Assembly: GCA_047967505.1 (NCBI GenBank)
Contig: CM106538.1
Reading direction: 5' to 3' (one strand)
From: Dipteris shenzhenensis
Taxonomy: Eukaryota
DNA length: 64,000 nucleotides
Shown: positions 19,500-56,482 of the stretch, piece after piece
Layout: every line of letters begins with the position of its first letter
Numbering within the stretch: position 1 is the first letter of the stretch
Made by a program: the position numbers and the translations under genes
Notes under the pieces: generated by a model
What the model was told of the DNA's origin: nothing
Databases searched by the model: none
Seen by the model: the letters and a program-made list of their open reading frames with translations, nothing else

Positions 19500-22400
19500 T
19501 TCTCTTGGAGATTTTTAGCATTAAAAATTTTGATGGGACAAACTTTTCTTTGTGGAAAGAATAGATAAGGAATGTGCTTATTCAAAAGAAGTAGATTAAA
19601 CCCCTGGATTAGGCTAAGCCTACAGGAGCTATGTATGAGGATGATTGGAATGAGTTGGATGCATTACCAAGGTCTAATGTTCATATTGCAATTTCACAAT
19701 AGTAAATGAGAAGACTACGAAAGATTTGTGGAAGAAATTATGTGCCACTTATGAGAAGGAAACTACCTCTAATAAAGTTTACCTCATGAAGACATTGTTT
19801 GAGCTGTAGATGAAGGAAGGGGTCTCCATTGCTTCTAACTTAAATGAATTCAATATTATTTTCAGCCAGCTTCAAAATTTTGATGTGGAGACTAAGGAAA
19901 TATTCCTCTTATGTTCATTGCCATGCTTATGGGATGCCTTCCATATAGCTACCTATCAGTAACTCTGCACCTAGTGGAGCACTAAAGTTTGATGATGTTG
20001 TGGCTAGCTTGTTGGCAAAGGAGATTAGATGAAAGTCTATGGAAGGCAACAAGCAGGATGGAGCCTTAAATGTGCAAAGGGGTAGATCACAATTCAGGGG
20101 GAAGTCTCAAGAAAGAGAGAAGTCTCATAACAAATCTAGGGCAGGAAAATTAAGTGTTACCATTGTGGCAAGAAGGGCCACATGAAATCCTTCTTCTAAA
20201 AGTTGAAAGGAGAGCAAAAGGATAAGAAAAAGAATGCAAATTTCGGGTGCAAATAAGAAGCAAGAGAGTCCAAGGGAGGACAAAGGAAAAGTGAAGATTG
20301 AGGAGATCAATGCAGCATCATGACTAATAATAGTAACTATGCCATTCTCTTCATGTCTAGTCTACCTCCATAGTTGCTCACCACTTTAGATTATGCATAT
20401 TCACAAGATTGGATTTTGGACTCTGGTGCTTCATTCCATGTTAATCCCCATAGGGAATGGTTCTCCATTTATGATAGGAGAAAGACATGTTGTGTGCATC
20501 TTGGAAATAACTATGCATGTGACAAAGTGGGAGTAGGTGACATAAAGTTTTCTTTTGCAAATGAGTCTACATTTGTTTTAAAAAATGTGAGACGTGTGCC
20601 TAAGCTAACCAAGAGTCTCATTTCAGTGGGTCAGCTAGATGATGCTGGTTTTTAGACCATCTTTGATTTTGGGATTTGGAAAATTCAAAAGGGATCTATG
20701 CTTTTGGCCAGGGGTGCCAAATGTGAGACTCTGTATTCCTTACATGTGTCAGGTGTGTCTGATCATGTTGTTGCAATAACTGAGCAGCCAAGTATTCCTT
20801 TGTGGCATTGCCAGTTGGGCCATATGAGTCAAAATGGAATGAAACTCTTATGCCATTTGGGTTACGTACTGCATTTCAATCTTTTTTACTTTGAATTTTG
20901 TGAGCACTATCTTTATGGGAAGTATATTGAATTAGCCCATAAAAGAAGGGGAAAGAAAGAGCTTGAAAAGCTTGATTTGGTGCATTTAGGCAATGTGATC
21001 CCATGCCTAGATGGTCATTATGTAGGGCTGAATACTATGTGACATGCATTAATGATGCAACTAGGAAAGTGTGGCCTTATGCTATGGCTCAGAAGAGTGA
21101 TGTGTTCTAGGTATTTCAAAAATGGATAGCTTTGGTTGAAAATCAGTCAGGTAGAATGCTTAAATGCCTACAAACTGATAATGGTGGAGAGTATCTCTCT
21201 CATGACTTTCAACATTTTGTAATACACGTGGGATCAAGAGGGAAATCACGTGCCCTTGTACTCTAGAGCAAAACTTTAGATGCAGAAAAGATGAACCATG
21301 CCATTTAGGAAAGGTTGCAATGTATGCTTTCCAATGCAAGTCTTTCTGGTGGTTTTTTGGCTAAGGCAATGAAGACTGCAGTACACGTGATCAATAGATC
21401 ACCTAGTAAGAGTTTGGATGGTGGTATTCTTGAAGAGGCATGAGTGGCAAGAAGCCCTCTTACTCTCATTTTTGTATATTTGGGTGTGAGGTGTATTCAT
21501 ATGTGCCAAAAGAGCTTCGAAAGAAGCTAGATCCCAAGTCTAGGAAATGCATCTTTCTAGGTTATGGTGAAAGTGGAGAGATGGGCTATCATCTCTAGGA
21601 TCCAGAAGAAAAAAAGATCATATGCATCCATGATATGTTCTTCAATGAGAAGAAGATGCATAATACACCCGTGAGGGATGTGGAAATGAGGAGAATCACT
21701 TTCTAGGATGTGAATCTGACTGCATATGTTGATAGACAACAAGTTGTTCATGCACCAAATGTGTAGGAAATGGTACCACTAGATATTCCCACAAGTGAGC
21801 CATAGGTACACAATCAAGGGCAAATGATGGGTCATCTATTGGTGGAAATGATGAGCCAAATGTTTCTAATATGCAAGCGGGAGAGCAAGCTGAAATGCCC
21901 TTGAGAAGATTAGCTGCATTGTCTAGACCACTTGATAGGTTTGTTCCAAGGGTAGACTATGTGATGCTTACTGATTGTGGGGAGCCTTCTTGCTATAGAG
22001 AGGCTATGATGTGCGAGGATTAGCACAAGTGGGAGTATGATATGCAATCAGAGATGGTTCACTCATGAAGAATAAGACTTGGGACTTGGTTTCTTTACCA
22101 CATGGAAAGAAAGCATTGCCATGATGTCCCTAAATATAAGGCTTGTTTGGTTGCTAAAGGATTCAAGCAAGAGAAGGGTGTATACTTTGATTAGATCTTC
22201 TCTATAGTTGTGAAGATGACCACACTTAGATGCGTACTTGGATTTGTGGTAGAAGAGGATGTGTAGCTAATGCAGATGGATGTCAAGACGGCTTTCTTGC
22301 ATGGGGATCTACATGAGGAAATTAACATGGTGTAGTCGAAAGGCTTTGAAGAAAAGGGAAAAGAGCATTTGGTTTGCAAGCTAAAAAAGATTCTCTATGG

Positions 22401-22771
22401 CCTTAAGCAAGCGCCTAGAGAATGGTATCAGAAATTTGATGCTTTCATTTGGTCCCAGGGTTTCAAAAGGAGTGAAATTGATCACTGCTTCTACACTAAA
22501 AGGGCTAAGGATAATATTTTGATACTCTTGGCACTTTATGTGGATGATATGCTATTGTCTAGCAAGAACACTTATGAGATGGATGCATTAAAGGCCAAGT
22601 TGCATGAGGCCTTTTTCATGAAGGATTTGGGACCTACAATTCATATTCTTGGTATGCACATCACATGTGACCAGATCAGTAGGAAACTCCTTTTGCTTTC
22701 ACAAAAGGAGTATGCTACAAAAGTATTGCAGCATTTCAATATGGAGGGGGGGAAGGTAGTGAGTACCATGG
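19500..22771 (+). mobile_element. gag-pol: Old Tnt1/Tork-like Ty1/copia copy 1 (gag-PR-IN-RT, decayed, 3'-truncated)
   Basis: Contains FDGTNFSLWK gag, WILDSGASFH protease (20409), LWHCQLGHMS, LKK.LYGLKQAPREWY and LYVDDML. It is collinear with 52081-54375. Confidence 0.92.
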
Positions 22772-32085: not shown

Positions 32086-34820
32086 TCTATGGTTTTGACA
32101 AGAGGTGCCAAGTGTGAGACATTGTATCCCTTACATGTATCAGGGGTGTCTAATCATGTTGTTGCAATAACCGAGTAGCCAACTACTTCTTTGTGGCATT
32201 CCAGGTTGGGGCACATGAGCCAAAATGGAATGAAACCTTATGCTATTTGGGTTATGTACCACATTTGAGTTTCTCTGACTTTGAATTTTGTGAGCATTGT
32301 CTCTATGAGAAGCAGACTAAATCATACCATAAAAGAAGGGGAAAGAAAGAGCTTGAAAGGCTTGATTTGGTGCATTCAGATGTATGTGGTCGCATGCGAC
32401 ATTCATTGATGATGCAACTAGGAAAGTATGGGCTTATACTATAGCTTGAAAGAGTCATGTGTTCCAGGTATTTAAAAAATGGTTGACTTTGGCTGAAAAT
32501 CAGTCAGGTAGAACACTTAAATGCCTACAGACGGATCCCTCTTACTCTCATTTGTGTATATTTGGGTGTGAGGCATATGCACATGTGCCAAAAGAGCTTC
32601 AAAAGAAGCTAGATCCTAAGTCTAGGAAATGCTCAGGAAATGCGTCTTTCTAGGATATGGTGGTGAAAGTGGAGAGATGGGCTATCGTCTCTGGGATCCA
32701 GAAGCAAAGAAGATCATATGAAGCTATGATGTGGTCTTCAATGAGAAGAAGATGCATAAGACACCCATGAGGGATGTGGAAATGAGGAGAATCACTTTCC
32801 ATGATGTGAATCCATCTGCATATGTTGATAGACAGCAAGATGTTCATGCACCGAATGGTGCCCCAAGTACTTCCATAGGTACAAAATGAAGGGTACATGA
32901 TGGATCATCTATTGGTGAAAATGATGTCCCAAATGTGGCTAATATATACAGGTGGGACAGTAAGCTAAAATGCCCTTGAGAAGATCAACTAGAGGGTCTA
33001 GACCCTGCCTGAGAGATTTGTTCTAGGCAAACCTGATCCAGAGATTTGCTACTACAAAGAGGCTATGGTGCATGAGCATTAGCGCAAGTGGTAGTATGCT
33101 ATGCAATCATAGGTGAATTCACTCATGAAAAATAAGACTTGAGACTTGGTTTCTTTGCCACATGGAAAGAAATCATTGCCATGTAAATGGGTCTACAAGA
33201 TGAAGGTCATAGGTGATGATGTGCCTAAGTACAAGGCCCGTTTGGTTGCTAAGGGGCTCAAGCAAGAGAAGGGTTTGGACTTTGATGAGATCTTCTCTCT
33301 GGTTGTGAAGATGACCATGCTTAGATGTATACTTGGACTTGTGGCAACAGAGGATATGGAGCTGATGCAAATGGATGTCAAGACAGTTTTCTTGCATGGG
33401 GATTTGCATGAGGAAATTTACATGGTATAGCTAGAAGGCTTTGAAGAAAAGGGCAAAGAGAATTTGGTTTGCAAGCTAAAAAAGAGTCTCTATGTCCTTA
33501 AGCAAGCGCATAGATAATGGTATCAGAAGTTTGATGCCTTCATTTGGTCCCATGGTTTTAGAAGAATTGAGATTGATCACTGCCTCTACTCTAAAAGGGC
33601 TAAGGATAAGAGCCTGGTACTCCTAGCACTTAATGTGGATGATATGCTATTGGTTAGCAAGAACACTAACGAGCTGGATACATTGAAGGCCAAGTTGCAT
33701 GAGGCCTTTAACATGAAGGATTTGGGACCTGCAAGTCATACTCTTGGTATGCGCATCATGCATGACCGGAGTAGGAATCTCCTTTGGCTTTCACAGAAGG
33801 AGTATGTTACAAAAGTGTTGCGGTGTTTCAATATGGAGGGGGGGAAGGCAATAAGTACTCCATTTCCTCCATATGTGAAATATAGTCAGGCAGATAGTCC
33901 CAAATCAGATGAAGAGAGGGCATGATGGCCAAGATCCCTTATGCATCAATGATTGGGAGGCTTCTGTATGCTATGATAGCTACTAGATTGGACATTACAT
34001 TTGCAGTGGGAGTTGTTAGCTGGTATATTTCTAATCCAAGAAAGAGGCATTGAGAGGCAGTTAAGTGCATCATGAGGTACATGAAGGGTACCAAGGAGAT
34101 GTGTATCTTCTTTGGCAAAGGAGAGATGTGTGCACTTGGGTACACATATTTAGACTATGCAAGACATGTGGATAGCAGGAGATCCACTTCTAGTTATGTG
34201 TTCACCTTTGCAGGTGGTGTAGTGTCGTGGATGTCTTGTGCACAAAAGTGTGTTGCTTTGTCTACCATAGAGGACAAGTATGTTGCAGCCACAAAGGGTT
34301 GCAAGGAGGCTATATGGCTTGATCAACTAGTGGGAGATTTAGGGATTCATACAGGTGTACCGACATTGCATAGTGATTCCATGAGTGCTATTTTGCTAGC
34401 ACAGAATCCGGTATTTCATGCAAAGATGAAATGCATTGAGGTCAGGTACCATTTCATCAGGGAGGTACTTGAGGACAAGCACATAGAGCTTGTCAAGGTC
34501 ATAAAGATGATAATCCTGTAGATATGCTGACGAAGAGTCTACCTAGTTAGCGATTTTAGTATTCCCGTGTATTGATGGGCATTGGATAGTATGTCCATTG
34601 GTTGTTCTCCCTTAAAGGCACATTGGCCTTTCAGTGGGAGGTTATGGGGGTGAAAGGCCACTGTACCTTAACCCCAATTATGTACAATACTCAAACACAT
34701 ATATATATGGATGACATAGAAGATTAGGGTGTTTTGCACCCACCAAAACTTGTGTGGATCTCTCTTCTGGCTCTTCCTTTTCTCTCACCCTCTTCGGTTC
34801 CACTTCTATTGTCAACAACA
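32086..34820 (+). mobile_element. pol: Old Tnt1/Tork-like copia copy 2 (5'-truncated; IN-RT-RH, PPT, 3' LTR 34643-34820)
   Basis: Contains LDLVHSDVCG, CKWVYKMK...YKARLVAKG, DSRRSTS and NPVFHAK. Its LTR is homologous to 55161-55331. Several internal deletions are present. Confidence 0.92.
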
Positions 34821-38249: not shown

Positions 38250-41200
38250 AGGAGATGGGAGTGAAGTAAAATAAAACTAGTAACACAAACCAATGACCTT
38301 TCAATGGACATTGAAGCAAAGAAGAAAGAGACTGCAAGCAAAATAATCAATAGTATTTTGTAGTTCTCCCTTGCTTTTGGTAGGAGAGATAGGTTAGAAA
38401 TCATTCAATCAATGATGAAGAACGAACACATTTTGAAAGGTCTTGGCAACCAACACATTGATAATTTCATAGTTCTATATGCATTAAAGAGGTCCTTACA
38501 AGAACCAAAGAATCCCAAATTAGACACATAACTCTTTGTGAAGCCAAGCATACAAACCATGGTACTAGCATCATTAAATGAGGATGAAATTTCTATTCCA
38601 AGAGATTCAAGAGTGCTGAACATGCACCCTAGGAATTTATACTCACCACTTAATAGGTTTTCAAATGATGAGGATGGAAGAAAGTTGTCTTTTGAGCTTT
38701 GTAAACAAAAATCCCATGATGATGTGTTGAGCTCTGAAGTAAGGGAACTCATCGTCAAATTTTGGATAGAACAAACAAGGGTGACACCAAACAAGAAGGA
38801 CATTTGCCATCATCAAATTGCAAAAAATGAATATGAGAAGCACCCAATACATTTTCTTGATGATTCACAAAGGTAAGATCAGTTGCTATATGTATTGTTT
38901 ACTATGAGTTGTGGCTGTGTGCTCTATAGTAGTTTTTAATAGGCTACATGAGAAGAAATGATGCATTAATGTGTTATATGGATAGCATGTATATAAGTCT
39001 ATTACATATGCATACAATGTTGTTTAGCATACTAGGGAACTCATAGCATGCATGGTTCCAACCCCATCTTTGTCTCCTAAGTTTTCCCTATTGTCTAGAG
39101 TTCCAATCCTCGTGGGACATGAAAAGAAACCCCCAATCTAGCCACAATGGCAAATTTCTTGTGTTGTGTGCTAGCCTTTAATGAAATCATAGTTCTTCCC
39201 ATTAAACTTCGACAGCCAGTGGAACAAGATCAAGAGGAAGAGAGGATTATAAAGAATAATACTATTTCCTAAGTGTACAGGAGATCTATAATTTCATGGA
39301 ACCCTGTATTTTGTGCTAGCCTTTGATGAAATTATAGATCTTTCCAAGTACACTTCGGTAGCCAGTGGAATAAGATCAAAAGGAAGAGAATATTACAAAG
39401 AGTATTACTATCTCCTAAGTGTATGGGAGATCTATAATTTCATGGAAGCTTGTGTTGTGTGCCAGCCTATGTTGTGTGCTAACCTTTGATGAAATTATAG
39501 ATCTTTCCAAGTACTCTTTGGCAGCCAGTGGAACAAGATCAAGAGGAAGAGAGAATTACAAAGAATGTTACTATCTCCTAAGTGTACAAGAGATCTATAA
39601 TTTCATGAAAGCATGTGTTGTGTGCTAGCCTTTGATGAAATTATAGATCTTTCCAAGTACACTTTGGCAGCCAGTGGAACAAGATCAAGAGGAAGAGAGG
39701 ATTACAAAGAATATTACTATCTCCTAAGTGTATGGGAGATATCTATAATTTCATGGAAGGGTATATAGTGGGTTTCTTTTCATGTGCTAAAGATGTGGAC
39801 TATCATATGCTAGTTAATGCTAGTTAGGACTAAGGTATGATGCTAGGGACTTGCTTTTGAAGTCCTTGAAAACAATCGTCTTATCAAAAGCTTTTGCCCA
39901 AGTCCTACCCTCTCTAAGTTAATTATCTCTACATCATTCAAAGTCACAACTAGGAAAGGTTGTCCTGTTAGCTTGACGAAGCAATTATACATGGTGTGCC
40001 ATGTCTATGTACATTGAAATTTTCTGCTATATAGGTCTGAGTAGCACAAATAGTGAGCTATATAGTATACATAGCTCCACATCTATGTGTGCACTCAAAC
40101 TGTGTTATGTAGTAGATTTTGTGGGGTGTATAGCCTTGTATAGCACAGATAATGTTGTATAGTGCATACATGTTCTGCCCCATCTCTATGTATTGAAATT
40201 GTCTACTATGTAGCTGTAGTCTACCACATAACATATGCAGTTTTCTCTTTTCTTGTCTATTTCATCAGACACAACTTCATCTACAAATGATAGGCGGAAC
40301 AGTTTAGGGAGTGTTTGAAGAATTTCCCTTCAGATGTCATTGTGTTTGTTATGGACTTTGTAGACAATTACTCATTCAAAGTCCAAAATGAAATTCAATC
40401 CATGCATTGGCATTCAGATCAGTGTACAATCCTTGTTCATATTACTTATTGCCGCAACTTTCTGGATGACCAAATTATCAAGGAGTTTCATTTCTACATT
40501 TCTGATGATAGAACACACGACACTCTTTTTGTATAGCATTGCCACAGCAAGACCCATTTACTTTGTTACCAAATTATTTGCATTGGCCAATGTTGAGATG
40601 ACTTGGAACTTCTTTGGATCATGCCATGGCGAAGGAGAACACGATGGTGCAAGTGTAGTGATTAAAAGAGCCCTTACACATGAGCAACTCAAGACTGGTG
40701 GTGTGGTATTGAAGCAAGCAACTGATGTAGTGCAATTTTTAACAAATTCATCGAGTACTACTGCATCTACTAGCTCCAAGCACAGGGAAGGTCCATCCAA
40801 AAGAGTGTTTTGGGAGATCAAGTTGGGTGAAGTGGATAGAACCAAGACATGGGGTTGTGCAAGTGTGGAGGGGTCTCGAGGATTGCATAGCATTTGAGGA
40901 TTTTGTAGACATGATGCAACGCAATTCAAGAAAATGGAATTGTCCTGCTATTGCCATGCATGCATGCACAAAAGGTGGAGATCGTGTGAGAACAAGTCCC
41001 ATGTTCAAGCTTGGGCATCAGGCATTATTTCTCCAACTGATGAGGTATCAAGTGAAGAAAACATAGTTGAAGAACCTATCAATGAGGGCTATGAGGACTT
41101 GTTGAGTGATCTGCTTGTAGAGGGAGACAATTTTGCTGTGAATGCCGAGAAGGGAAATGATGAGGGTGTGGATTTCTTCATTTTGAAAAGTAGCCATGCA

Positions 41201-44197: not shown

Positions 44198-44990
44198 TGA
44201 GGGAGAGAGGAGCAGCATAGAGAGGGAACTTGAGCCTTCCTAAGAGCTTCTGACACAGAGAGGGAACCTGAGCTATCTAGAGAGGAAAAGTGGGTGTTTT
44301 GAAGAATTAAAATTTTTTGGGAACTTCACAAAAAGTTTTATGAAGCTTGAAAGTGTGTGGCAAATTTAAGCATGGATTCTCAGCTTCACCACTCACACTT
44401 TCAAAAAAAGTTCATCACACTTCACCTGTTTGAATCCTCAGTGTGGGGACATTGAAGTTGAGCTGAACGATAGCACAGTACCATAGACGACGAATATAGA
44501 AAACTAAAGGTCTTCAACTTGCAGGATAGGGGAACAAATGATTGACAACATGATGGTTGTGGTGGAGGGTTTGCATTAAGTGTAGGGGTGAAATTCACAA
44601 TGGGTATGCCTCTTTCATTTTTGTGTTTACTCCAAAGTTCACACTGATGGCCTTGACGATGTCCATCGTCAAGCCCAGAATATAAGCGCATGCTTGATTG
44701 TTTTGTCTTTGTTGTGTATTCCAGTTCTGGTTCTGTTGTCTTCTAGGTGTTGCATTGTTATATCTTGGGTTCGCTTGTGCTCGCACCTATTTGGGTAGCT
44801 TGTGCTACTGGTTGCATATGAGGAGGTAACCTCCTCCTATAACTTGGATTATACCAACACTTTTCTTTATGATGATTATCTTTTCCATAGTACTCACATG
44901 GTACCTTTTCTTTCTTTGATTCTACTCCCATACTCTTCAACTCTTCCTTAATTATCTTCTCAAGTTTAGAGTCTCCTTTGGGACTCATTT

Positions 44991-45161
44991 TGTGGGGGTT
45001 AAAGGTCACTGTGCCTTAACCCCGGTTATGTACAATACTCAAACACATATATAAATGAACGAAAAAGAAGATTAGGGTGGTTCTGCACCCACCAAAACTT
45101 GTGTGGCTCTCTGTCTCTCTCTCTCCTTCTTCCGTTCTTGCTTCCATTGAGAGCACTCTCA
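44991..45161 (+). repeat. 5' LTR of outer copia
   Basis: TGTGGGGG...CTCTCA with a TATATAAA box. It is identical to the 3' LTR at 168/171 positions. Confidence 0.97.
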
Positions 45162-45163
45162 AC

Positions 45164-45175
45164 TGGTATCAGAGC
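45164..45175 (+). promoter_or_regulatory. Primer-binding site (tRNA-iMet) of outer copia
   Basis: TGGTATCAGAGC, 2 nt after the LTR end. Confidence 0.95.
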
Positions 45176-46667
45176 CCGAGTGATCTAGCTGAGCGTGCGT
45201 GAATGCTGGAAGCTCAGCAGCTCTGTGGGAGGAAGGAGAAGCTCTGTGGGAAGCTTTGTGGGTGACTTTACTTGCGTCCGAGTGTGCAGAGACCTTGGAG
45301 GAACCTTTGGAAAAGTCACTTTGGCTTTGCGAAGTGGTTTTGAGAGCCTGTTAAGTGGTTTCAAAGAAAAAGTCGTTTTTGGAGCTTTTCCCTATTCCGT
45401 TCGATGACAAAGACTCCGTATTGACTTGTAGAGGCAACTATTGCTTGCTTTTGGTGTCCACTTCACTTCAGGAGCTTGGAAACACCTTCATTCTTGAATC
45501 TGGGATCATTTCATTGGAATTCTGACTCATTGTGTCAGTTCCTGCGTTTTTCGCCCGGGTGTTGGAACTCAAGTTTGGAGCAACCATTTGCAGATCTATC
45601 AGTTCCGGTGGACTCAGGAGGTCCTAAAACTTCTATGTTGCTCATCATTCGCACTCCGGTGGAGTTTACAAACAGCTCTGTTTCAAAAAACGTTTTTCAG
45701 TCCGTGTGTTGGACCCAGTGATTGAGACCACGGTTTCCAAAACCGTCTATCTCATTGCGTTCCGGACGCCCAAAAACCCCTACCTATCAGTGTTGAGATA
45801 TCAAGCTCTACCCCCGATATATCTCCTGGATGACTATCATTTATGTCACCGCCTATGTTAGTTGTACTCGTGGTGTAGTTAGACTACCACGTATGTTTTT
45901 GGTTTGGGTTCACATATGAACCACGTATTCTAGGTTTTGACATATAGGGTATTTCCCTCTTCTATTGTATCGTTGTTGTGTGCAAAAGTGAAGAAAGGCT
46001 TCACCCTCCAACCTTGTGTCTTCTCTCTTTTGAGTGTTGTGAAGAAAGTTGAACTTGAGTCTCCTATCTCTCTCCCTTATTCTTTTCATGGTATCAGAGC
46101 CTTGTTCGTGGTAAGGAGCTCAAGAAAGCAAGCCAAGTTTGTGGTGTCCTGGTAAGAGGACCAGTGTAGCTTTCCTATTTCGAGTTTGGGAGCAAATCTC
46201 TGCAAGTAGCACAGCCAGAAGTGCAGGAGTGCACTGCTTCAGATTGAGAGGCCCTTCGCGGTGCGGCGAGAGCGCAGTATATGCTGCGGGAAAGGGCGAA
46301 GTCCTTGGTGACTTTATTTTTCTGATTTGAGGCCGTTTCGGGGCCCGTTTTGAAGGCAGAAGTTCTTCGCAGGCACTCAGAAAAAGGCCCTGTTTTTACT
46401 GTGCGACCACTGCGCGCGGCCAGTCGGTGGAAAGGTGCCACAGAAATTGCATCGTATGCCTGTGTGCAGAGATATTGGGAGTTGCAGATTCATGCCTGTT
46501 GCTTGTTGATGCAAAATCGTCACTAGGAAGTGACTGTGTGGTGAAATACCACTTTCGTCAGTGTTGCAGATCTGCCCCTGTGAGGCTTTTTGCAGAAGGT
46601 TTGCTATTTGCCCTTGTGAGGCATTTGCTGTGTTTACAGGTTGCTGTTGCAATTCATGATTTGTAAA

Positions 46668-49600
46668 ATGTCTGAGAATCTGTCTACCATTGTCAGTGAG
46701 AAGCTTGACAAGAACAACTTCCAAGCATGGAAGTTCAGGATGACAAACTTCCTTATGGGAAAGGGAGTTTGGGATTACATCAGTGGTGAAACTGTAGAAC
46801 CAGTTTTGGGTACTGCTCCCACTCCTGCTGAATTGAAGGCCTTTAAAGAATGGCATGAAAAAGCCAGAAAATGCTTGTATTGGCTGTCTGTTAGCATTTC
46901 AGATTCTATGATTGTGCATATACAGGATGTAGAGACGCCTAAGGAGGCATGGGATACATTGGTGAAGCTGTATAGCACAAATACCAAAGCACGAAAGATG
47001 CAGCTAAAGCAGGAGTCGCACAATGTGCAAAGGAAAAATCTGAATATAAATGAGTATTCCTTGAACTTGCAGATTCTCTTGCCTCCAATGGAGCACCTGT
47101 TGATGATGACTTAGTGTCCGTGACCTTGAATGGTCTTGGGAAAGATTATGCACAGTTTCGGACATCCATTGGAGTCCGTGAAACATTTCCTGATTTTCAG
47201 GAACTTATTGCTCTCTTGCTGAGTGAAGAGCAAAGGAATGGTGGTTCAGCCACCTCAACTTCTCAAGAGACTGCTTTCTACTCGAATACAGGTAGAGGCA
47301 GGGGTAGAGGAAGAGGCCGTTTTGGTGGCCGTGCAGGAAATCAGAACCAGCAGCAACAACAAGAAAACCAGTCCTATGGAGGAGGACGTGGTAGTTCTAG
47401 AGGCAGGGGGAGCCAAAGAGGCCGTGGTTCATGGCAAAGGAACCAGCAAGTAAATAGCAGCACAGAATGCTATTATTGTGGAAAGCCTGGACACAAGGAG
47501 AATACATGCTATAAAAAATAGAATGACATCAAAAGTGGGAAGTTGCAGCAAAGCAACTATGCATCATCAAGTGGGCATGGTGACGACAGAAATGAGCACC
47601 TTTTTGTGATGCAGCATATGGTTAACTCCATGTCAGGAGATGTTGCAGCTTGCAATGATGTTTGGTATGATGATTCAGGTGCCTCTAACCACATGACCAG
47701 TCATGGTGAGTGGTTTCATGATGTTAGAAATTTGGATAAGCCAGGTTATGTTGAAACAGGTGATGATACTGCGCACCCAATTACGCAGGTTGGTAAAGTG
47801 CCATTGGCTATGCAGGATGGCAAAACGAAGTACTTGGCAGATGTACTTCATGTTCCAAAAATCACTAAGAACCTGGTTTCAGTTGGCCAGATGGTTGAGC
47901 AAGGTCTGCAGGTTAGATTTAATCCTGATGGATGCTTCGTTGAGGACTTGAAAAATAAGTGCTGCTTAGTTGCGAAAGGCAACAAAAATGGCAGAATGTT
48001 CACCTTGGATGTTGATATGCCTGAGGTGAAAGCTGCTATGTTTGCGCATGGGAGAGGTGTCATTGTAGATATTGAGATATGGCACAAGCGCATTGGGCAT
48101 GTGAATATACAAAGGCTGAAATCTATGCAAACGAAAAACATTGTTGCAGGTTTGCCTAAATTCAGAGTTGAGGGAATGCAAAAGGTATGTGAAGCATGCC
48201 AAATGGGTAAGCAGGCCAGACATGCATTTCCCAAAAATGCTAAGGTGAGCAGAAGACCTTTGGAAGTGATCCATTCAGATGTTTGGACAACCAAAGCTGC
48301 TTCTATTGGTGGATGCCATTATTATGTGACGTTTATTGATGACTACACTAGGAAGGTGTGGATTTATTTTATGAAGCACAAAAGTGAAGTGTTCAGCCAT
48401 TTCAAGGCTTTTAAGGCCATGGTTGAAAAAGAGAAAGGTGTGCATATTAAAGTGCTAAGATCTGATGGAGGGGGAGAGTACTTTTCAGAAGAATTTTGTG
48501 AATATCTGAAAGAACAGGGAATTCAAAGGAAGTACTCATGCAGGTCTACCCCTCAGCAGAATGGGGTTGCAGAAAGGAAGAACAGGCATATTGCAGAAGT
48601 AGGACGGGCGATCCTAAATGAGAAAAACATGCCTGATTATTTTTGGGCTGAAGCAGTAGCAACTGCTGTTTATATTATGAACAGAACTCCCACTGCAGCT
48701 GTCCATGGCATGACGCCTGAAGAAATGTATACAGGCCAAAAACCAGATATTTCTCACTTGAAGGTATTTGGTTGCATAGCGTATGTTCATGTTCCTGATG
48801 AGAAGAGAACCAAGCTGGATCCAAAGGCAGAAAAATGCATCTTTATTGGATATGCTCAGCACTAGAAAGGGTATCGCTGTTATAACCCTTCCACCCGCAA
48901 AATGCAAGTGAGCAGAGATGTTGTTTTTGATGAAATGAGCAGCTGGTATGCACCAACTGTTATGGTAGGAGATGCAGATGCAGGAAATGGGAATGCTGCA
49001 ATAAATGCAGAGCAGCAATCTCAAGCCTTGAGTGGACCCAGAGAGTCCTCTACTAGTGGATCTAATGCATGGACAGGGAGATTGAGATCTAGTGAATCGT
49101 CACATGGCAGCCCTGATAGTGTTGTGTAGGTATCACATAAGGGAAAAGAAAAAGTGGACCATGCACCAGTGTTTGATGTGTCTGCTGGTAGCTCTCATGT
49201 TGATGGAGAGTCAAGTGGCTCTGAAATGAGCCTTGATGAGGAACTTGGGATTCCTTCTGTTGTTACACCTGGTGCAAGGAAAAGCAGGCATGATTTAAAG
49301 ACTCCTGCAACTGATCCAGTTGTACGGAGGTCCACTCGTATTAAGTATCCAGTTGACAGGCTGAGATATGATGGGTATACAGCACATCACTATGCTTATA
49401 TGGTTAAGGTTCTAGAGGAGCCAGAGCCCACATGTTTTGAGGATGCAGCAGGGCATAAAAATTGGGAAGCAGCTATGGATGAAGAGATGGCTGCCTTGGA
49501 TGCAAACCACACTTGGGATTTGATGCCTTTGCCTCATGATAAGAAGGCTATTGGCTGCAAGTGGGTTTACAAAGTAAAGCACAATGCTGATGGGTCTGTT

Positions 49601-51010
49601 AGCAGGTACAAGGCAAGATTGGTTGCCAAAGGTTTTGCGCAAACATATGGAATTGACTATGAGGAAACTTTCAGCCCAGTTGCAAGGATGGCAACCGTGA
49701 GAGCAGTAATTGCTATGGCTGCTGCAAAGGGATGGTCTTTGCATCAGATGGATGTGAAAAATGCCTTCTTGCATGGTGATTTGCAGGAAGAGGTTTATAT
49801 GATGCAGCCAGAAGGTTATGAGGATAATGCACACCCCGATTTTGTATGCAGGTTGTGCAAAGCCTTGTATGGCTTAAAACAGGCGCCGAGGGCATGGTCA
49901 GACAAGATAGGGCAATATCTTGTCACTATTGGATTTCAGATTTCCAATTCAGATTTTTCACTTTATGTGAAAAGGACAAACAGAGGGATTGTGCTTGTAG
50001 TCATCTATGTTGATGACTTGATTATTACAGGTGATAGTGATGCAGACATTAATGAAGTGAAGCTGCTGTTGAAGCAGAAATTTGAGATGAAGGATTTGGG
50101 AGAGCTGCGTTACTTCTTGGGCATTGAGGTTATTAGATCCCCGAGTGGGATATGGCTGTTGCAAAGGCAATACGGTTTGGACATGCTGTCCAAATATGGG
50201 ATGACAGGCTGTAAGCCTATTTCTGTTCCATTGGAGTAGAATGTGAAGCTCAATGCAGAGACAGGTGAGCTTCTTGAAGATATTACTATGTACAGGCGCA
50301 TAGTAGGAAGCTTGATTTACATGACTATAACCAGACCAGATTTGAGCTATGCTGTGGGGCTGGTAAGTCAGTTTATGCAGGCACCGAGGAAGCCACATTT
50401 GGATGCGGCTAGGCGCATACTGCGGTATGTGAAGTCCACATTGCATTATGGACTATTTTATGAAGCTGGGTGTGCATTACAGGTACATGGATACACAGAT
50501 GCTGACTGGGCTGGTAGTGTCTCAGACAGGAGATCTACTAGTGGTTTTATGTTTTCCCTTGGGAGTGGTGCCATCAGTTGGAGCAGCAAGAAGCAGCCAA
50601 CAGTTGCCTTGTCGAGCACAGAGGCTGAGTACAGTGGTTCAGCAATGGCTGCATGTGAGGTAGCTTGGTTACGGAAGCTACTTGCAGATATGGGACAATC
50701 AGTTCATGCAACAGTTGTCATTCATTGTGACAACATTAGCAGCATCATGCTTGCTAATAACCCAGTTTATCATGCTAGAACGAAGCACATTGAGGTGCAT
50801 TATCACTTTGTGAGAGAGAAGGTTCTAGCTGGTGAGATTGATCTTGTCTATGTCAGCACTGAGGAGGAGGTGGCTGATATTTTTACGAAGGCATTGGGTA
50901 CCGAGAAGCTTCGCAGATTTAGGAGCTTGCTTGGTGTACGTGAGATGGATTTGAGCTTGAGGGGGAGTGTTGAGATATCAAGCTCTACCCCTAATATATC
51001 TCCTGGATGA
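46668..51010 (+). pseudogene. gag-pol: Inner copia gag-pol (GAG, CCHC, PR, IN, RT, RNase H) with one frameshift and four in-frame TAG stops
   Basis: Contains KLDKNNFQAWKFRM, CYYCGKPGH....C, DSGASNHM, WHKRIGH, RSDGGGEY, QQNGVAER, YVDDLII and RTKHIEVHYHF. The frameshift is at ~47065; TAG codons are at 47519, 48863, 49127 and 50237. Confidence 0.95.
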
Positions 51011-51265
51011 CTATCATTTATGTCACCGCCTATGTTAGTTGTACTCGTGGTGTAGTTAGACTACCACGTATGTTTTTGGTTTGGGTTCACATATGAACCA
51101 CGTATTCTAGGTTTTGACATATAGGGTATTTCCCTCTTCTATTGTATCGTTGTTGTGTGCAAAAGTGAAGAAAGGCTTCACCCTCCAACCTTGTGTCTTC
51201 TCTCTTTTGAGTGTTGTGAAGAAAGTTGAACTTGAGTCTCCTATCTCTCTCCCTTATTCTTTACA
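50968..51265 (+). repeat. 3' LTR of inner copia
   Basis: TGTTG...TTACA, matching 45791-46088. Confidence 0.97.
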
Positions 51266-52080
51266 ATCAGTTCTTGCGTGATTCGGTGGAGGATTTTCAG
51301 AGTTATAAATCTTTGTGTATTCGATTTCGTCTCTCTGTTATGCATTTTTCATACTAAGGTTTTGAAACCTTAGATTTATGCCACATGGCAGTGGATAAGT
51401 GTTGACTCCCATTTCTCACTCATCGGTTGGGATTTCGGAGTTCTGGGAGAAGAGAGATATTTGCAGATTTTCTTGCTGATTCCGATTATGCAATGGCGCC
51501 CATGTTTTGAGGCATCTCAGGTTCTATTTTCAGTAGCGCTCATTACCGTGGGACTATGATTTCTTGAGCATACCTTATGCAGATCACTCTGGTTGCAGTT
51601 TGAGCAATGTGCGCTCATTCGTGGTATGCATTGGGTTGCAGTGGATGATTTATAGGCCATTTGGATGCATTACGGTCCTTATTGGATGCGCTGATAGGCC
51701 CAAATTGCCTTGTGGGATGCTATTTTTATGGACGCTTTGCACATGGATGCTATTTTATGCTGAGGGACAGCTTTGACACATTGTTGGTGATGCACTGATA
51801 GTGCTATGCTCTCTTGGATGAGATATAATTGATGCATATGCCAGTGGACGGTGTTTATGCTTGAGTCATTTGGCACTTATTGGCATTTTCTTTTGGGCCA
51901 GATTTGCTCATATGGATGCATAGTATATGCACATGAGTCAGATGCATCTTTTGATGCTTTGAGCTTTGAGTCTTTTGTGATATTTCAGTCTATTGTGGCA
52001 TACACATTTGGGTGCACCTGGTATTTGGTGTGATTCTCTCTTGCAGGGACTAGCATTTGGGATTTTGTTTCATTTGCATC

Positions 52081-52286
52081 ATGGCATCCTCTTCCATGCC
52101 TGAAAAGGAGTTTTTCAGCATTAAAAAGTTTGATGGGACAAACTTTTCTTTGTGGAAAGAACAAATAAGGGATGTGCTTATTCAAAAGAAGCAGATTAAA
52201 CCCTTGGCAGGGATTGAAGCTAAGCCTGCAAATATGTCTGAGGATGATTGGAATGAGTTGGATGCATTAGCAAAGTCTACTATTAG
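52081..52286 (+). pseudogene. gag: Outer copia gag N-terminus, truncated by an internal deletion
   Basis: MASSSMPEKEFFSIKKFDGTNFSLWKEQIRDVLIQK...AKSTIR, then an abrupt jump to pre-integrase sequence. Confidence 0.9.
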
Positions 52287-55107
52287 ATGGCCAGGGGTGC
52301 CAAGTGTGGGACTTTGTATCCCTTACATGTATCAGGGGTATTTGATCATGTTGTTGCAATAACCGAGCAGCCAAGCACTTCTTTGTGGCATTGCAGGTTG
52401 GGGCACATGAGCCAGAATGGAATGAAACTCTTATGCCGTTTGGGTTATGTACCGCATTTGAGTTTCTCTGATTTTGAATTTTGTGAGCATTGTCTCTATG
52501 GGAAGCAGACTAAATCAGCCCATAAAAGAAGGGGAAAGAAAGAGTTTGAAAAGCTTGATTTGGTGCATTCAGACGTATGTGGTCCCATGCCTACACGGTC
52601 ATTAGGCGGGGCTGAATACTATGTGACATTCATTGATGATGCAACTAGGAAAGTGTGGGCTTATGCTATAGCTCGGAAGAGTGATGTGTTCCAGGTATTT
52701 CAGAAATGGCTGGCCTTGGTTGAGAATCAGTCAGGTAGAACGCTTAAATGCCTACGGACTGACAATGGTGGAGAGTATCTCTCTCATGACTTTCAGCATT
52801 TCTGTGATACTCGTGGGATTAAGAGGGAGCTTACATCCCCTCGTACTCCAGAGCAAAATCCAGTTGCAGAAAAAATGAACCGTACCATTCAAGAAAGGTT
52901 GCAATGCATGCTTTCTAATGCAAGTCTTTCTGGTGGTTTTTGGGCTGAGGCAATGAAGACTGCAGTGCATGTGATCAATAGATCACCTAGTAAGAGTTTG
53001 GATGGTGGTATTCCTGAAGAGGCATGGAGTGGAAAGAAGCCCTCTTACTCTCATTTGCGTATATTTGGGTGTGAGGCATATGCACATGTGCCAAAAGAGC
53101 TTCGAAAGAAGCTAGATCCTAAGTCTAGGAAATGCATCTTTCTAGGTTATGGTGAAAGTGGAGAGATGGGCTATCGTCTCTGGGATCCAGAAGCAAAGAA
53201 GATCATACGCAGCCATGATGTGGTCTTCAATGAGAAGAAGATGCATAAGGCACCCATGAGGGATGTGGAAATGAGGAGAATCACTTTCCAGGATGTGAAT
53301 CCACCTGCATATGTTGATAGACAGCAAGCTGTCCATGCACCAAATGTGCAAGAAATGGTACCACCAAGTACTCCCATAGGTATACAATCAAGGGTAGATG
53401 ATGGATCATCTATTGGTGGAAATGATGAGCCAAATGTGGCTGATATGCAAGTGGGACAGCAAGCTGAAATGCCCTTGAGAAGATCATCTAGAGTGGCTAG
53501 ACCGCCTGATAGGTTTGTTCCAGGGGTAGACTATGTGATGCTTACTGATTGCAGGGAGCCTTCTTGCTATAGAGAGGCTATGATGCATGAGGATCAACAC
53601 AAGTGGGAGTATGCTATGCAATCAGAGATGAGTTCACTTATGAAGAATAAGACTTGGGACTTGGTTTCTTTGCCACATGGAAAGAAAGCATTGCCATGTA
53701 AATGGGTCTACAAAATGAAGGTCACAGGTGATGATGTGCCTAGGTACAAGGCCCGTTTGGTTGCTAAAGGGTTCAAGCAAGAGAAGGGTGTGGACTTTGA
53801 TGAGATATTCTCTCCGGTTGTGAAGATGACCACACTTAGATGCATGCTTGGACTAGTGGCATCAGAGGATATGGAGCTTATGCAGATGGATGTCAAGACA
53901 GCTTTCTTGCATGGGGATTTGCATGAGGAAATTTACATGGTGCAGCCGGAAGGCTTTGAAGAAAAGGGCAAAGAGCATTTAGTTTGCAAGCTAAAGAAGA
54001 GTCTCTATGGTCTTAAGCAAGCACCTAGAGAATGGTATCAAAAGTTTGATGCTTTCATTCGGTCCCAGGGTTTTAGAAGGAGTGAAATTGATCACTGCCT
54101 CTACACTAAAAGGGCTAAGGATAATAGCATGATAATCTTGGCACTATATGTGGATGATATGCTATTGGCTAGCAAGAATACTTATGAGCTAGATGCATTA
54201 AAGGCCAAGTTGCATGAGGCCTTTGATATGAAGGATTTGGGACTTGCAGGTCATATTCTTGGTATGCGCATCACGCGTGATCGGAGTAGCAAACTCCTTT
54301 GGCTTTCACAAAAAGAGTATGTTACAAAAGTATTGCAGCGTTTCAATATGGAGGGGGGGAAGGCAGTGAGTACTCCATTGCCTCCATATGTGAAACTGAG
54401 TCATACAGATAGTCCCAAATCAAATGAGGAGAGGGCCATGATGGCCAAGGTTCCTTATGCATCAGCAGTTGGGAGTCTTATGTATGCTATGATAGCTACT
54501 AGACCAGACATTGCATTTGCAGTGGGAGTTGTTAGCCGGTATATGGCTAATCCAGGAAAGAGGCATTGGGAGGCAGTTAAGTGCATCATGAGGTACATGA
54601 AGGGTACCAAGGAGATGTGCATCTGCTTTGGTAAAGGAGACATGCGTGTACTTGGGTACACAGATTCAGACTATGCAGGGCATGTGGATAGTAGGAGATC
54701 CACTTCTGGTTATGTGTTCACCTTTGCAGGTGGTGCAGTGTCGTGGATGTCTCGTGCACAAAAGTGCGTGGCTTTGTCTACCACAGAGGCTGAGTATGTT
54801 TGCAGCCACAGAGGGTTGCAAGGAGGCTACATGGCTTGATCGGCTAGTGGGAGATTTGGGGATTCATACAGGTGTACCGACATTGCATAGTGATTCCATG
54901 AGTGCTATTCAGCTAGCACGGAATCCGGTCTTTCATGCAAAGACCAAACACGTTGAGGTCAGGTACCATTTCATCAGGGAGGTACTTGAGGACAAGCGCA
55001 TAGAGCTTGTCAAGGTTCATACAGATGATAACCCTGCAGATATGCTGACGAAGAGTCTACCTATTCAGCGGTTTGAGTATTGTCGTGTATTGATGGGCAT
55101 TGGATAG
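52287..55107 (+). CDS. pol: Outer copia pol (integrase-RT-RNase H); open for ~840 codons, then a +1 frameshift at ~54800
   Basis: Contains LWHCRLGHMS, CEHC, HSDVCGP, TDNGGEY, YVDDML, DSDYAG, KHVEVRYHF and NPADMLTK. There is an extra T in GAGTATGTTTGCAG relative to copy 2. Confidence 0.92.
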
Positions 55108-55160
55108 TATGCTCACTGGTTGTTCTCCCTTAAAGGCACATTGTCCTTTAAGTGGGAGGT

Positions 55161-55331
55161 TGTGGGGGTTAAAGGTCACTGTGCCTTAACCCCGGTTATG
55201 TACAATACTCAAACACATATATAAATGAATGAAAAAGAAGATTAGGGTGGTTTTGCACCCACCAAAACTTGTGTGGCTCTCTGTCTCTCTCTCTCCTTCT
55301 TCCGTTCTTGCTTCCGTTGAGAGCACTCTCA
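55161..55331 (+). repeat. 3' LTR of outer copia
   Basis: Matches 44991-45161. Confidence 0.97.
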
Positions 55332-55406
55332 CATTTCCTCTTTTTTCTTGGTTTTGGTTCAAGCCTTTGTTTTAGACTTCTTGTCTTTTCCGTTTTTCCA
55401 CTCTCG

Positions 55407-56482
55407 TGTAACTATGTGGGAACCAGCTAACTCTACTTGTAAGCCCCCCATATGAGGAGAAGGCATTTGAGTAGCTCGGTTATCCGGTAGGTCCTGCTTT
55501 GGACACCAGATGGGGGCCATGTGTGGCCTGATGGTTGGACGGCTTTAGATAAAGTTGGCACACTACTAACTAGGCTACATGCAAGTGCAGGAAGGCATCC
55601 CATGACTGACCGCACTGAGGGTAGATGGAGCATTTCTCGGGGCAGCCCACACTCTCAGGTTGTGGGGCCCGTTTGCAGCCCCAGATGATCCCGAATGGCT
55701 GTGGGCCGAACAGTAACCATAGGTCAATTGCTCTATTCTGCACCACGGTTCTATCGTGTGGTCGGTGGCCTATTCCGATCCCCAATCGGCCGTTTTGGGT
55801 GAACTGGGTCGGTCACCCAATTGGGTCTAACCGACTATGACTGGTGGCTATATAAGAGCAAGCTCGTGAAACCCATATCATCACTAGCTATAGCAACCGT
55901 GATTCCTTAGCATCCAGCCTCCATCCTCTACTATTTCTAGCATGCCATCGAAGCTTCTCACATAGGAGCACACGCCTAGGAGGCAGCACCATCTATTCTA
56001 TCAGTTCTACAGTAATCAAATTTTTTATTCTCCATACTATCTGCTTTTCTCTCTTGCATACGAGATCCTATTATCTGTTGAGCACAGATGTTGTATTGTT
56101 TTCTTACATGGTATCAGAGCTTGGACTCTAGCAAGAAGATTTGGTAGTGTGTTTTTGTTTGTGAGTAGATTGTGAGAGATGCCCCAGCCCACAAGACTAC
56201 GAATTCCACCGTTCGACGAAAGCGAAAAGTTGGATGGCACTAACTATCCACTCTAGAAGTTCAAGATGAAGACCATCCTAAGTGCATATGAGCTTTGGGA
56301 TACTACTACTGGGGTGGATGTGAAGCCGGTTGCGAGACTGGATCCACCAGCCAATGCAAGACAACAGATAGTACCAACTACGGATGAGATTCTCGCATGG
56401 ACAAGAAGAAATGCAAATGCACTGTGTTCTATTGTCTGCAGTGTAAGTGACTCTATCATGGCATTAATTCAACATGTCACCA
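55407..56482 (+). mobile_element. 5' fragment of a third copia family: ~700-bp LTR (55407-56108), PBS 56109-56120, gag N-terminus from 56179
   Basis: TGTAAC...TTACA|TGGTATCAGAGC, with TATATAAG at ~55849. The gag reads EKLDGTNYPL*KFKMKTILSAYELWD...NANALCSI. No 3' portion is present. Confidence 0.8.

What the first reader, a model, noticed from the sequence alone, without database searches (positions are those of the whole stretch)
55131..55189. Covarying stem-loop that displays the PPT/U3 junction of the Tnt1-like copia in its loop
Seen in the young copy: a 21-nt arm 5' of the PPT (TAAAGGCACATTGTCCTTTAA, 55131-55151) is complementary at 18/21 to an arm inside U3 (TTAAAGGTCACTGTGCCTTAA, 55169-55189). 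The loop is GTGGGAGGT|TGTGGGGG, i.e. most of the PPT plus the LTR start. The diverged copy has the same geometry (34613-34633 / 34651-34671, also 18/21). Two positions have changed in both arms: an A-U pair becomes C-G (2nd from the loop) and a U.U mismatch becomes G-C (8th from the loop). Each arm can alternatively fold on itself (e.g. GGGGTTAAAGG...CCTTAACCCC), and the 5' LTR has only that option. Inference: this is a selected RNA or ssDNA structure, possibly a switch, controlling plus-strand priming or distinguishing the 3' from the 5' LTR. I do not recall this being described, but it rests on only two copies.
Basis: partly seen in the sequence, partly recalled or inferred. Interest (0 to 1): 0.75.

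Follow-up and report, generated by a model that had tools for sequence, protein, structure and literature searches.

The report
Inverted repeat around copia plus-strand primer
A plant copia retrotransposon carries a 21-base inverted repeat bracketing the spot where second-strand DNA synthesis is primed; the repeat is real, but this kind of repeat was already described for copia elements in 2010.

Summary
Arms 55131-55151 and 55169-55189 pair at 18/21, as do 34613-34633 and 34651-34671. The loop is the PPT octamer, a 2-nt spacer and the first 8 nt of the 3' LTR. Such a repeat is rare in the window (0.16% of background positions).

The same geometry, with unrelated arm sequences, occurs in the copia nested in this element and in two copia elements from another genome.

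It is not new. Bousios et al. 2010 (PMC2829016) describe this inverted repeat around the PPT/3'LTR junction in Sireviruses and about half of classic copia. They propose a stem-loop that exposes the PPT. Benachenhou et al. 2013 repeat this.

Covariation is thin. There is one strict compensatory pair (A-U to C-G), one U.U/G-C difference and one broken pair, from two copies. This is nominally unlikely by chance (P about 0.005).

The free RNA prefers two local hairpins by 7-9 kcal/mol. The long stem wins in minus-strand DNA once the PPT is occupied.

More copies of this family could not be fetched. Verdict: a new member of a known kind, low interest.

The parts
44991..55331 (+). Young Ty1/copia element, 4.87 kb of its own sequence plus a nested 5.47-kb copia; flanked by target-site duplication CATTT (44986-44990, 55332-55336)
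   Evidence: LTR pair 98.3% identical; boundaries and duplication read; RVT_2, rve and gag_pre-integrase domains
44991..45161 (+). 5' LTR (171 bp, TG...CA); holds a copy of the right arm at 44999-45019 but no left arm upstream
45164..45175 (+). Primer binding site TGGTATCAGAGC
   Evidence: exact match
45791..51265 (+). Nested, unrelated copia element (298-bp LTRs 99.3% identical, PBS 46089-46100, target-site duplication ATCAG) with its own PPT-flanking inverted repeat
52287..55107 (+). pol of the young element (integrase, RT, RNase H), in two overlapping frames (52287-54839 and 54628-55107), so frameshifted
55108..55130 (+). Linker between the pol stop and the left arm; CTCCC at 55125-55129 pairs with the PPT in the local hairpin
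55131..55151 (+). Left arm of the inverted repeat; its last base is the first base of the PPT octamer
55151..55160 (+). PPT octamer AGTGGGAG (55151-55158) plus 2-nt spacer GT
   Evidence: read. Octamer plus 2 nt plus TG is the geometry given by Bousios 2010, who name G-to-T at position 3 as the commonest variant in classic copia
55152..55168 (+). 17-nt loop of the long-range stem: PPT, spacer and first 8 nt of the LTR
55161..55331 (+). 3' LTR
55169..55189 (+). Right arm of the inverted repeat, LTR positions 9-29, upstream of a TATA-like box at about 55217-55224
55125..55158 (+). Alternative local hairpin 1: the left arm folds on itself and CUCCC pairs with GGGAG of the PPT
   Evidence: MFE and centroid; 25 of 26 cells paired over the two copies
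55165..55193 (+). Alternative local hairpin 2: the right arm folds on itself and GGGG of the LTR start pairs with CCCC
   Evidence: 20 of 22 cells paired
34613..34671 (+). Same inverted repeat in the older, truncated copy: left arm 34613-34633, loop 34634-34650, right arm 34651-34671. Its LTR starts at 34643 with TA, and no 5' LTR of this copy lies in the window
50953..50985 (+). Inverted repeat of the nested copia: left arm GAGCTTGA 50953-50960, PPT AGGGGGAG 50960-50967, LTR start 50968, right arm TCAAGCTC 50978-50985
   Evidence: 9/12; 8/8; background 16%

Best explanation
This is an instance of the inverted repeat that brackets the polypurine tract/3'LTR junction in Ty1/copia (Pseudoviridae) elements. 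The left arm ends exactly where the PPT octamer begins. The right arm lies at positions 9-29 of U3.

My best reading of how it works has two states.
- In the free genomic RNA the region sits mainly as two local hairpins. These bury the PPT and the first bases of the LTR.
- After minus-strand synthesis and RNase H digestion, the PPT RNA stays annealed to the minus-strand DNA. The local pairing of the PPT complement is then impossible, so the two arm complements of the minus-strand DNA zip into the long stem.
- That stem abuts the 5' end of the PPT hybrid. It leaves the template for the first LTR bases single-stranded in the loop. This would delimit and favour the correct plus-strand primer.

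What is shown: the repeat, its position, its recurrence in other families, and the computed preference of each state. What is inferred: that the stem forms in the replication intermediate, and that it acts on priming.

Odds: member of the described repeat class, about 0.85. Role in plus-strand primer definition, about 0.4. Acts specifically at the minus-strand DNA stage, about 0.2.
For: - The repeat is 18/21 in both copies and rare in the background: 0.16% of 6954 positions, and 1.2% and 0.18% in the anchored test.
- The same geometry with unrelated arm sequences occurs in other families:
  - the nested copia (8/8; left arm ends on the first base of AGGGGGAG);
  - L012 (11/12, abutting AGGAGGAG);
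  - L018, more weakly and with a gap.
- Fisher P over the 4 families is 4.7e-4.
- Of 14 PPT-like octamer-plus-TG sites in the window, only the 2 true junctions reach 9/12 or more. The other 12 reach 8/12 or less.
- Substitutions between the two copies keep 18 pairs despite 5 changes in 42 arm positions. P is 0.004-0.006 under random substitution. The arms diverge as fast as the flanks: 5/42 against 9/91, 3/23 and 7/64. So pairing is kept, not sequence.
- With the PPT complement blocked, the minus-strand DNA MFE contains the repeat stem in 5 of 5 elements, covering 4 of 4 families. In the older copy and in L012 it is the MFE even when unblocked.
- The left arm, PPT and LTR start (about 55128-55172) are 40 to about 2000 times deeper than their flanks in Logan contigs of three coded organisms. 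Different flanking sequences are attached, so this module is shared by other, more abundant families.
- Literature: Bousios 2010 and Benachenhou 2013.
Against: - Free-RNA folds prefer the two local hairpins: -31.5 and -29.4 kcal/mol against -22.3 and -22.8 for the forced long stem. The z-scores are only -1.44 and -0.65.
- With the PPT blocked, the RNA fold depends on the flanks chosen. The long stem wins in one 99-nt frame but not in a 100-nt frame.
- In free RNA the repeat stem is in the MFE of only 2 of 5 elements.
- Two of the four families are individually not significant (background 16% each). The RNAduplex statistic is weak for all.
- Covariation rests on two copies. There is one strict compensatory pair, and neither of its two changes is listed at the 5% threshold in any of the four runs laid. 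It may therefore be private to a dead copy and have arisen after insertion, when selection for transposition had ceased.
- The other pair may be a decay of G-C to U.U. G at 55144 is the majority in all three deep runs.
- RNase H works on RNA:DNA hybrids, so an RNA stem cannot act at the moment of cleavage.
- No experiment exists for this element.
Confidence: 0.5

Rival explanations
1. The functional structure is the pair of local hairpins in the genomic RNA. Hairpin 1 buries the PPT and hairpin 2 buries the LTR start. The complementarity between the arms is a by-product of two similar quasi-palindromes lying side by side.
For: The local hairpins are the MFE and centroid in both copies. They are 7-9 kcal/mol better than the long stem, and 45 of 48 cells are paired.
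Against: All three stem-position changes in the older copy break local pairs, and none is compensated. Two of them restore a pair in the long-range stem. The arms match better as an inverted repeat (18/21, no gaps) than as direct copies (my reading). The other families have the repeat but no equivalent pair of self-folding arms.
Confidence: 0.15
2. There is no structural function. Each arm is kept for a linear-sequence reason: a U-rich tract just 5' of the PPT, and integrase or promoter contacts at the U3 end. Alternatively, the repeat is created and kept complementary by a mutational process, such as template switching in a quasi-palindrome during DNA replication or reverse transcription. That process copies a change from one arm to the other without selection.
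For: The compensatory pair is seen only in a dead, truncated copy. Neither of its two changes is listed at the 5% threshold in the four runs laid. Two pairs hit on both sides is itself unlikely (P 0.009), as expected of a correlated mutational process. A conserved rU:dA tract 5' of retroviral PPTs is described (PMC1802577; only the start of the abstract seen, in the listing), and the left arm ends in CCTTTAA. The left arm, PPT and LTR start are conserved as sequence across abundant families. The template-switch mechanism itself is recalled from the literature, not checked here.
Against: The same geometry recurs with unrelated arm sequences in 3 further families, individually significant only in L012. 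The literature reports it across Sireviruses and about half of classic copia. A purely linear motif would not need a complementary partner placed symmetrically about the junction.
Confidence: 0.2
3. The two quasi-palindromic arms are double-stranded-DNA binding sites for a dimeric protein (a host transcription factor or an element protein), one just outside and one just inside the 3' LTR.
For: Each arm is itself an imperfect palindrome of the form TTAAAGG...CCTTTAA. The right arm lies in U3, upstream of a TATA-like box.
Against: The left arm is absent upstream of the 5' LTR, which is the promoter that matters. The nested copia, L012 and L018 have non-palindromic arms. The paired changes are mirror-symmetric about the junction and not at equivalent positions of two direct sites.
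Confidence: 0.07

Closest known systems
[quoted passage not shown]
   Same: The left arm ends where the PPT octamer begins. The loop runs 5' to 3' as PPT, short spacer, TG and LTR start. The right arm lies in the first tens of bases of the 3' LTR. Classic elements average 19 bp and 88.6% identity; here it is 21 nt and 86%. The PPT AGTGGGAG is the Sirevirus octamer AGGGGGAG with the G3-to-T change that the paper calls the commonest in classic elements. The proposed role, PPT primer formation, is the same.
   Different: The right arm starts at LTR position 9, against a mean of 18 in classic elements and 28 in Sireviruses. Each arm here can also fold on itself together with the PPT or the LTR start. 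The paper does not use the word compensatory (0 occurrences). Its arm alignments are in PDF supplements that I could not read, so I cannot say whether this family or a close one is among them.
Sirevirus genus signature (same paper)
   Same: An octamer-type PPT followed by 2 nt and then TG; an inverted repeat around the junction.
   Different: This element has a 171-bp LTR, 4.87 kb of its own sequence and a 43-nt linker. It has no cluster of extra PPTs in the linker, and its spacer plus LTR start is GT/TG, not AT/TG. It is not a Sirevirus.
PPT-containing hairpin reported for HIV-1 genomic RNA (Watts et al. 2009, known to me only as cited in Benachenhou et al. 2013, PMC3601003), and the U5-IR stem at the retroviral 5' end named there as an analogue
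   Same: A stem formed between an LTR sequence and an LTR-adjacent sequence, with a replication primer site displayed in or next to the loop.
   Different: It belongs to a retrovirus and rests on chemical probing. I did not read the HIV paper, so I cannot compare details.
Conserved rU:dA tract immediately 5' of retroviral PPTs (PMC1802577; only the start of the abstract seen, in the listing)
   Same: A conserved, U-rich sequence directly upstream of the PPT; here the left arm ends in CCUUUAA.
   Different: That motif is described as part of the RNA:DNA hybrid and needs no complementary partner in U3.

Membership tests
Pseudoviridae PPT/3'LTR-junction inverted repeat (Bousios 2010) | Host element is a Ty1/copia LTR retrotransposon | tested here: met
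   RVT_2 (E 7e-77) lies downstream of rve and gag_pre-integrase. LTR pair, iMet-type PBS and 5-bp target-site duplication are present.
Pseudoviridae PPT/3'LTR-junction inverted repeat (Bousios 2010) | Left arm extends to the start of the PPT octamer | tested here: met
   The left arm ends at 55151, the first base of AGTGGGAG. The same holds in the older copy.
Pseudoviridae PPT/3'LTR-junction inverted repeat (Bousios 2010) | [quoted passage not shown] | tested here: met
   Loop 55152-55168; LTR start 55161, fixed by the LTR pair and the target-site duplication.
Pseudoviridae PPT/3'LTR-junction inverted repeat (Bousios 2010) | Right arm lies a short way inside the 3' LTR; arms about 19 bp and about 88% complementary in classic elements | tested here: met
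   LTR positions 9-29; 18/21 = 86%.
Pseudoviridae PPT/3'LTR-junction inverted repeat (Bousios 2010) | More complementarity than chance gives | tested here: met
   Background fraction 0.0016; anchored test 0.012 and 0.0018. An RNAduplex energy statistic gives only 0.047 and 0.038.
Pseudoviridae PPT/3'LTR-junction inverted repeat (Bousios 2010) | Acts in plus-strand primer formation | not testable with these tools
   This is a proposal in the paper, not shown there either.
Sirevirus | Several identical PPT octamers clustered in a long linker; AGGGGGAG followed by AT/TG; large element with LTRs of about 0.5-1.7 kb | tested here: not met
   The linker is 43 nt and holds a single PPT. One further AGTGGGAG lies inside pol at 54521. 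LTR 171 bp; own length 4.87 kb.
Structured RNA supported by covariation | Statistically supported compensatory changes across many independent sequences | tested here: inconclusive
   Only two sequences. There is 1 pair with changes on both sides, and 249 of 500 shuffles do as well. A simulation of 5 random substitutions gives P 0.004-0.006 for keeping 18 pairs.
   No reference set of lineages was at hand. The nearest proteins are unnamed, at 77% identity or less. Named ones at about 60% carry the generic label 'transposon TNT 1-94'.
Rfam families | Match to a curated covariance model | tested here: not met
   0 matches at E up to 1 in 54800-55500, both strands.

The most novel reading that the evidence does not exclude
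The repeat is a two-state device keyed to PPT occupancy. In free genomic RNA two local hairpins hide the PPT and the LTR start. Once the PPT RNA is held on the minus-strand DNA, the DNA arms snap into the long stem. The stem stacks on the 5' end of the primer hybrid, sets the primer's 5' boundary, and presents the first LTR bases as single-stranded template. It would then be a DNA-level structure, not the RNA stem-loop proposed in 2010, and it would be general to copia elements.
Probability: 0.15. Interest if true: 0.6.

Novelty: new member of a known kind. Interest (0 to 1): 0.25.

Why it matters
How reverse transcriptase picks one short purine run as the plus-strand primer is still unclear for retroviruses and retrotransposons. 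A conserved structure abutting the PPT would give a concrete, testable determinant. [quoted passage not shown] For this window the value is modest. It adds one more family, plus the nested element, to a feature in print since 2010. It also adds a hint, from two copies only, that pairing rather than sequence is what is kept.

Tried and rejected
- Getting more copies of the family failed.
  - No whole genome is held for the window.
  - A 17-mer loop pattern in viral contigs gave 7 chance matches, none a copia junction.
  - A 19-mer in metagenome contigs gave 4 chance matches.
  - Protein-guided scans gave nothing in viral contigs and one useless fragment, L019.
  - Genome contigs gave one usable locus, L012, and two 0.5-kb pieces.
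  - The genome behind L012 held only two copia elements.
- Reads laid from four coded runs give pooled letters, not haplotypes. The two sides of a pair could not be linked, so I rejected them as a covariation test.
- The shuffle control of the count of structure pairs is uninformative with two rows.
- RNAduplex energy was too permissive to be a useful chance statistic.
- PBS-like matches at 4332, 5404, 22925 and 56109 have no LTR partner in the window, so they gave no further junctions.
- The older copy has no 5' LTR in the window, so its right-arm changes could not be dated as before or after insertion.
- Rfam gave nothing.
- The search of earlier findings gave nothing.
- I considered and rejected that the element is a Sirevirus (see Membership tests), and that the arms are LTR terminal inverted repeats. 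The LTR ends share only TG/CA.

Full report
**What is there.** The window holds a young Ty1/copia element at 44991-55331.
- Its 171-bp LTRs (44991-45161 and 55161-55331) are 98.3% identical.
- They start with TG and end with CA.
- They are flanked by a perfect 5-bp target-site duplication, CATTT.
- An initiator-tRNA-type PBS follows the 5' LTR at 45164-45175.
- pol carries gag_pre-integrase, rve and RVT_2 domains and is frameshifted.
- A second, unrelated copia (45791-51265, target-site duplication ATCAG) is nested in it.
- An older copy of the same family ends at 34.6-34.8 kb, and a third, truncated copy lies at 19.5-22.8 kb.

**The observation.**
- 55131-55151 pairs with 55169-55189 at 18 of 21 positions. 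The older copy (34613-34633 with 34651-34671) also has 18 of 21.
- The 17-nt loop is the PPT (octamer AGTGGGAG, 55151-55158), a 2-nt spacer and the first 8 nt of the LTR.
- The two copies differ at five arm positions. Two of the changes turn A-U into C-G (55150/55170). Two separate U.U from G-C (55144/55176). One (55183) breaks a C-G pair in the older copy.

**Chance.** I compared the 45 nt before and the 60 nt after each of 6954 other window positions. An ungapped inverted repeat as good as this one (score 15, 17/19) occurs at 0.16% of them.
- An anchored test takes the 12 nt ending just before the PPT and looks for its reverse complement in the first 60 nt of the LTR. It gives 10/12 (background 1.2%) and 11/12 (0.18%).
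- An energy-based statistic (RNAduplex) was far less discriminating: 4.7% and 3.8% of background, and 36 and 20 of 500 shuffles.
- The folding z-scores of the 99-nt region are -1.44 and -0.65.
- So the repeat is significant as a repeat. The region is not an unusually stable fold.

**Other families.**
- The nested copia has GAGCTTGA ending on the first base of its PPT AGGGGGAG, and TCAAGCTC at LTR positions 11-18. It scores 8/8 (background 16%) and 9/12 in the anchored test (9%).
- A copia element in a contig of another genome (L012) has a 12-nt left arm directly before AGGAGGAG and its complement at 11/12 from LTR position 15 (background 0.18-2.2%).
- A second element there (L018) has a weaker, gapped repeat (background 16-39%).
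- Fisher's combination over the four families gives P = 4.7e-4.
- As a control, 14 sites in the window look like a PPT octamer followed by TG. Only the two real junctions reach 9/12 or more.

**It is already in print.** Bousios et al. [quoted passage not shown] They report that:
[quoted passage not shown] - the repeat occurs in almost half of classic copia, where it averages 19 bp at 88.6% identity with the right arm about 18 bp inside the LTR;
- the commonest PPT variant in classic elements has T at position 3, which is the octamer seen here.

They propose that the stem-loop exposes the terminal PPT for precise RNase H cleavage. Benachenhou et al. 2013 (PMC3601003) restate this, say such a hairpin was also found in HIV-1, and call for a systematic search. 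The word 'compensatory' does not occur in the 2010 paper. Its arm alignments are in PDF supplements that I could not open.

**Which fold?** For the free RNA the predicted structure in both copies is not the long stem but two local hairpins.
- Each arm folds on itself.
- CUCCC upstream pairs with GGGAG of the PPT.
- GGGG of the LTR start pairs with CCCC downstream.
- Forcing the long stem costs 7-9 kcal/mol.

The substitutions point the other way. On the local hairpins the older copy has three broken pairs and no compensation. On the long stem it has one compensated pair, one gained pair and one lost pair.
- Five random substitutions in the 42 arm positions leave 18 or more pairs in only 0.4-0.6% of simulations. 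They hit two pairs on both sides in 0.9%.
- The arms diverge as fast as their flanks: 5/42 against 9/91, 3/23 and 7/64. What is kept is pairing, not sequence.

**Caveats on the covariation.**
- It rests on two sequences that were noticed because of this pattern.
- Neither change of the A-U to C-G pair is listed at the 5% threshold in any of the four runs laid. It may be private to a dead copy.
- That copy has no 5' LTR in the window, so the change cannot be dated.
- G at 55144 is the majority letter in the three deep runs, and C at 55176 is common in one of them. The young copy's U.U may therefore be a decayed G-C rather than the starting point of a gain.
- Templated mutation within a quasi-palindrome would give the same picture without selection. 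That mechanism is recalled, not checked here.

**A way to reconcile the two folds.**
- If the PPT (octamer plus spacer) is made unavailable, as when it is held in the RNA:DNA hybrid, the minus-strand DNA folds into the repeat stem in 5 of 5 elements examined, covering 4 of 4 families.
- In the older copy and in L012 it does so even without the block.
- For RNA the outcome with the PPT blocked depends on the flanks included. The long stem wins and the local hairpins win.
- This suggests that the stem belongs to the replication intermediate. It would abut the 5' end of the primer hybrid and leave the template for the first LTR bases in the loop. This part is inference.
- It also removes a difficulty of the 2010 proposal: RNase H cuts hybrids, not RNA stems.
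- The two self-folding arms are particular to this family, so a 'switch' is not general.

- The right arm lies about 28 nt upstream of a TATA-like box. It is therefore U3 and should not be in the 5' end of the transcript, so no structure is needed to tell the LTRs apart at the RNA level (inference).
- 'Tnt1-like' is only the generic label of named relatives at about 60% identity. With a 171-bp LTR and 4.87 kb of its own sequence, the lineage is open.

**Limits.** More copies of the family could not be obtained. The laid contigs give pooled letters only. The decisive covariation test on many copies remains to be done.

**Verdict.** The feature is a new member of a known kind. Interest is 0.25.

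Noticed in passing
window 55128-55172: In Logan contigs of three coded organisms this 45-nt stretch (left arm, PPT, LTR start) is far deeper than its flanks. The depths are about 39,700 against 800-930 in X4, about 19,000 against 450 in X6, and about 195,000 against 80-160 in X12. Many different sequences are attached on either side. G at 55144 is the majority letter. So the module is shared by other, much more abundant elements. Their continuations beyond 55167-55169 again read like a right arm. The very high figure in X12 is unexplained; the library type is not on record.
   Followed up: partly
window 45791-51265: A second, unrelated copia element is nested in the young one. It has 298-bp LTRs that are 99.3% identical, PBS at 46089, target-site duplication ATCAG, an in-frame stop between 50239 and 50240, and PPT AGGGGGAG directly followed by TG.
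   Followed up: yes
window 19507-22766: A third, truncated copy of the same family (87-92% identical to the young copy). It ends before the PPT region, so it gives no third junction.
   Followed up: partly
window 54521-54532 and 34005-34016: An internal copy of the PPT octamer AGTGGGAG followed by TTGT lies inside pol, about 630 nt upstream of the terminal PPT. It is conserved in both copies. It has no flanking inverted repeat (7/12). It might be an internal plus-strand priming site like those of Ty1 and HIV, or simply coding sequence.
   Followed up: no
L012 / L018 (G001 contig C18, 2.77 Mb): A contig filed under a Nitrospirales MAG carries two complete-looking copia elements with LTRs and an open pol frame of 1287 aa. 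This suggests eukaryotic DNA in a prokaryote-labelled assembly.
   Followed up: no
window 39196-39745 and 121-873: Tandem or closely spaced direct repeats: units spaced about 146-163 bp apart at 39.2-39.7 kb, and two 300-nt copies 453 bp apart at the window start (99% identical).
   Followed up: no
window 56109-56120; also 5404-5415 and 6237-6249: An exact iMet-type PBS match at 56109 has no LTR partner in the window. A one-mismatch PBS at 5404 lies 830 bp before a G-rich PPT-like site followed by TGTTGAG at 6237. These may be remnants of further LTR elements.
   Followed up: partly
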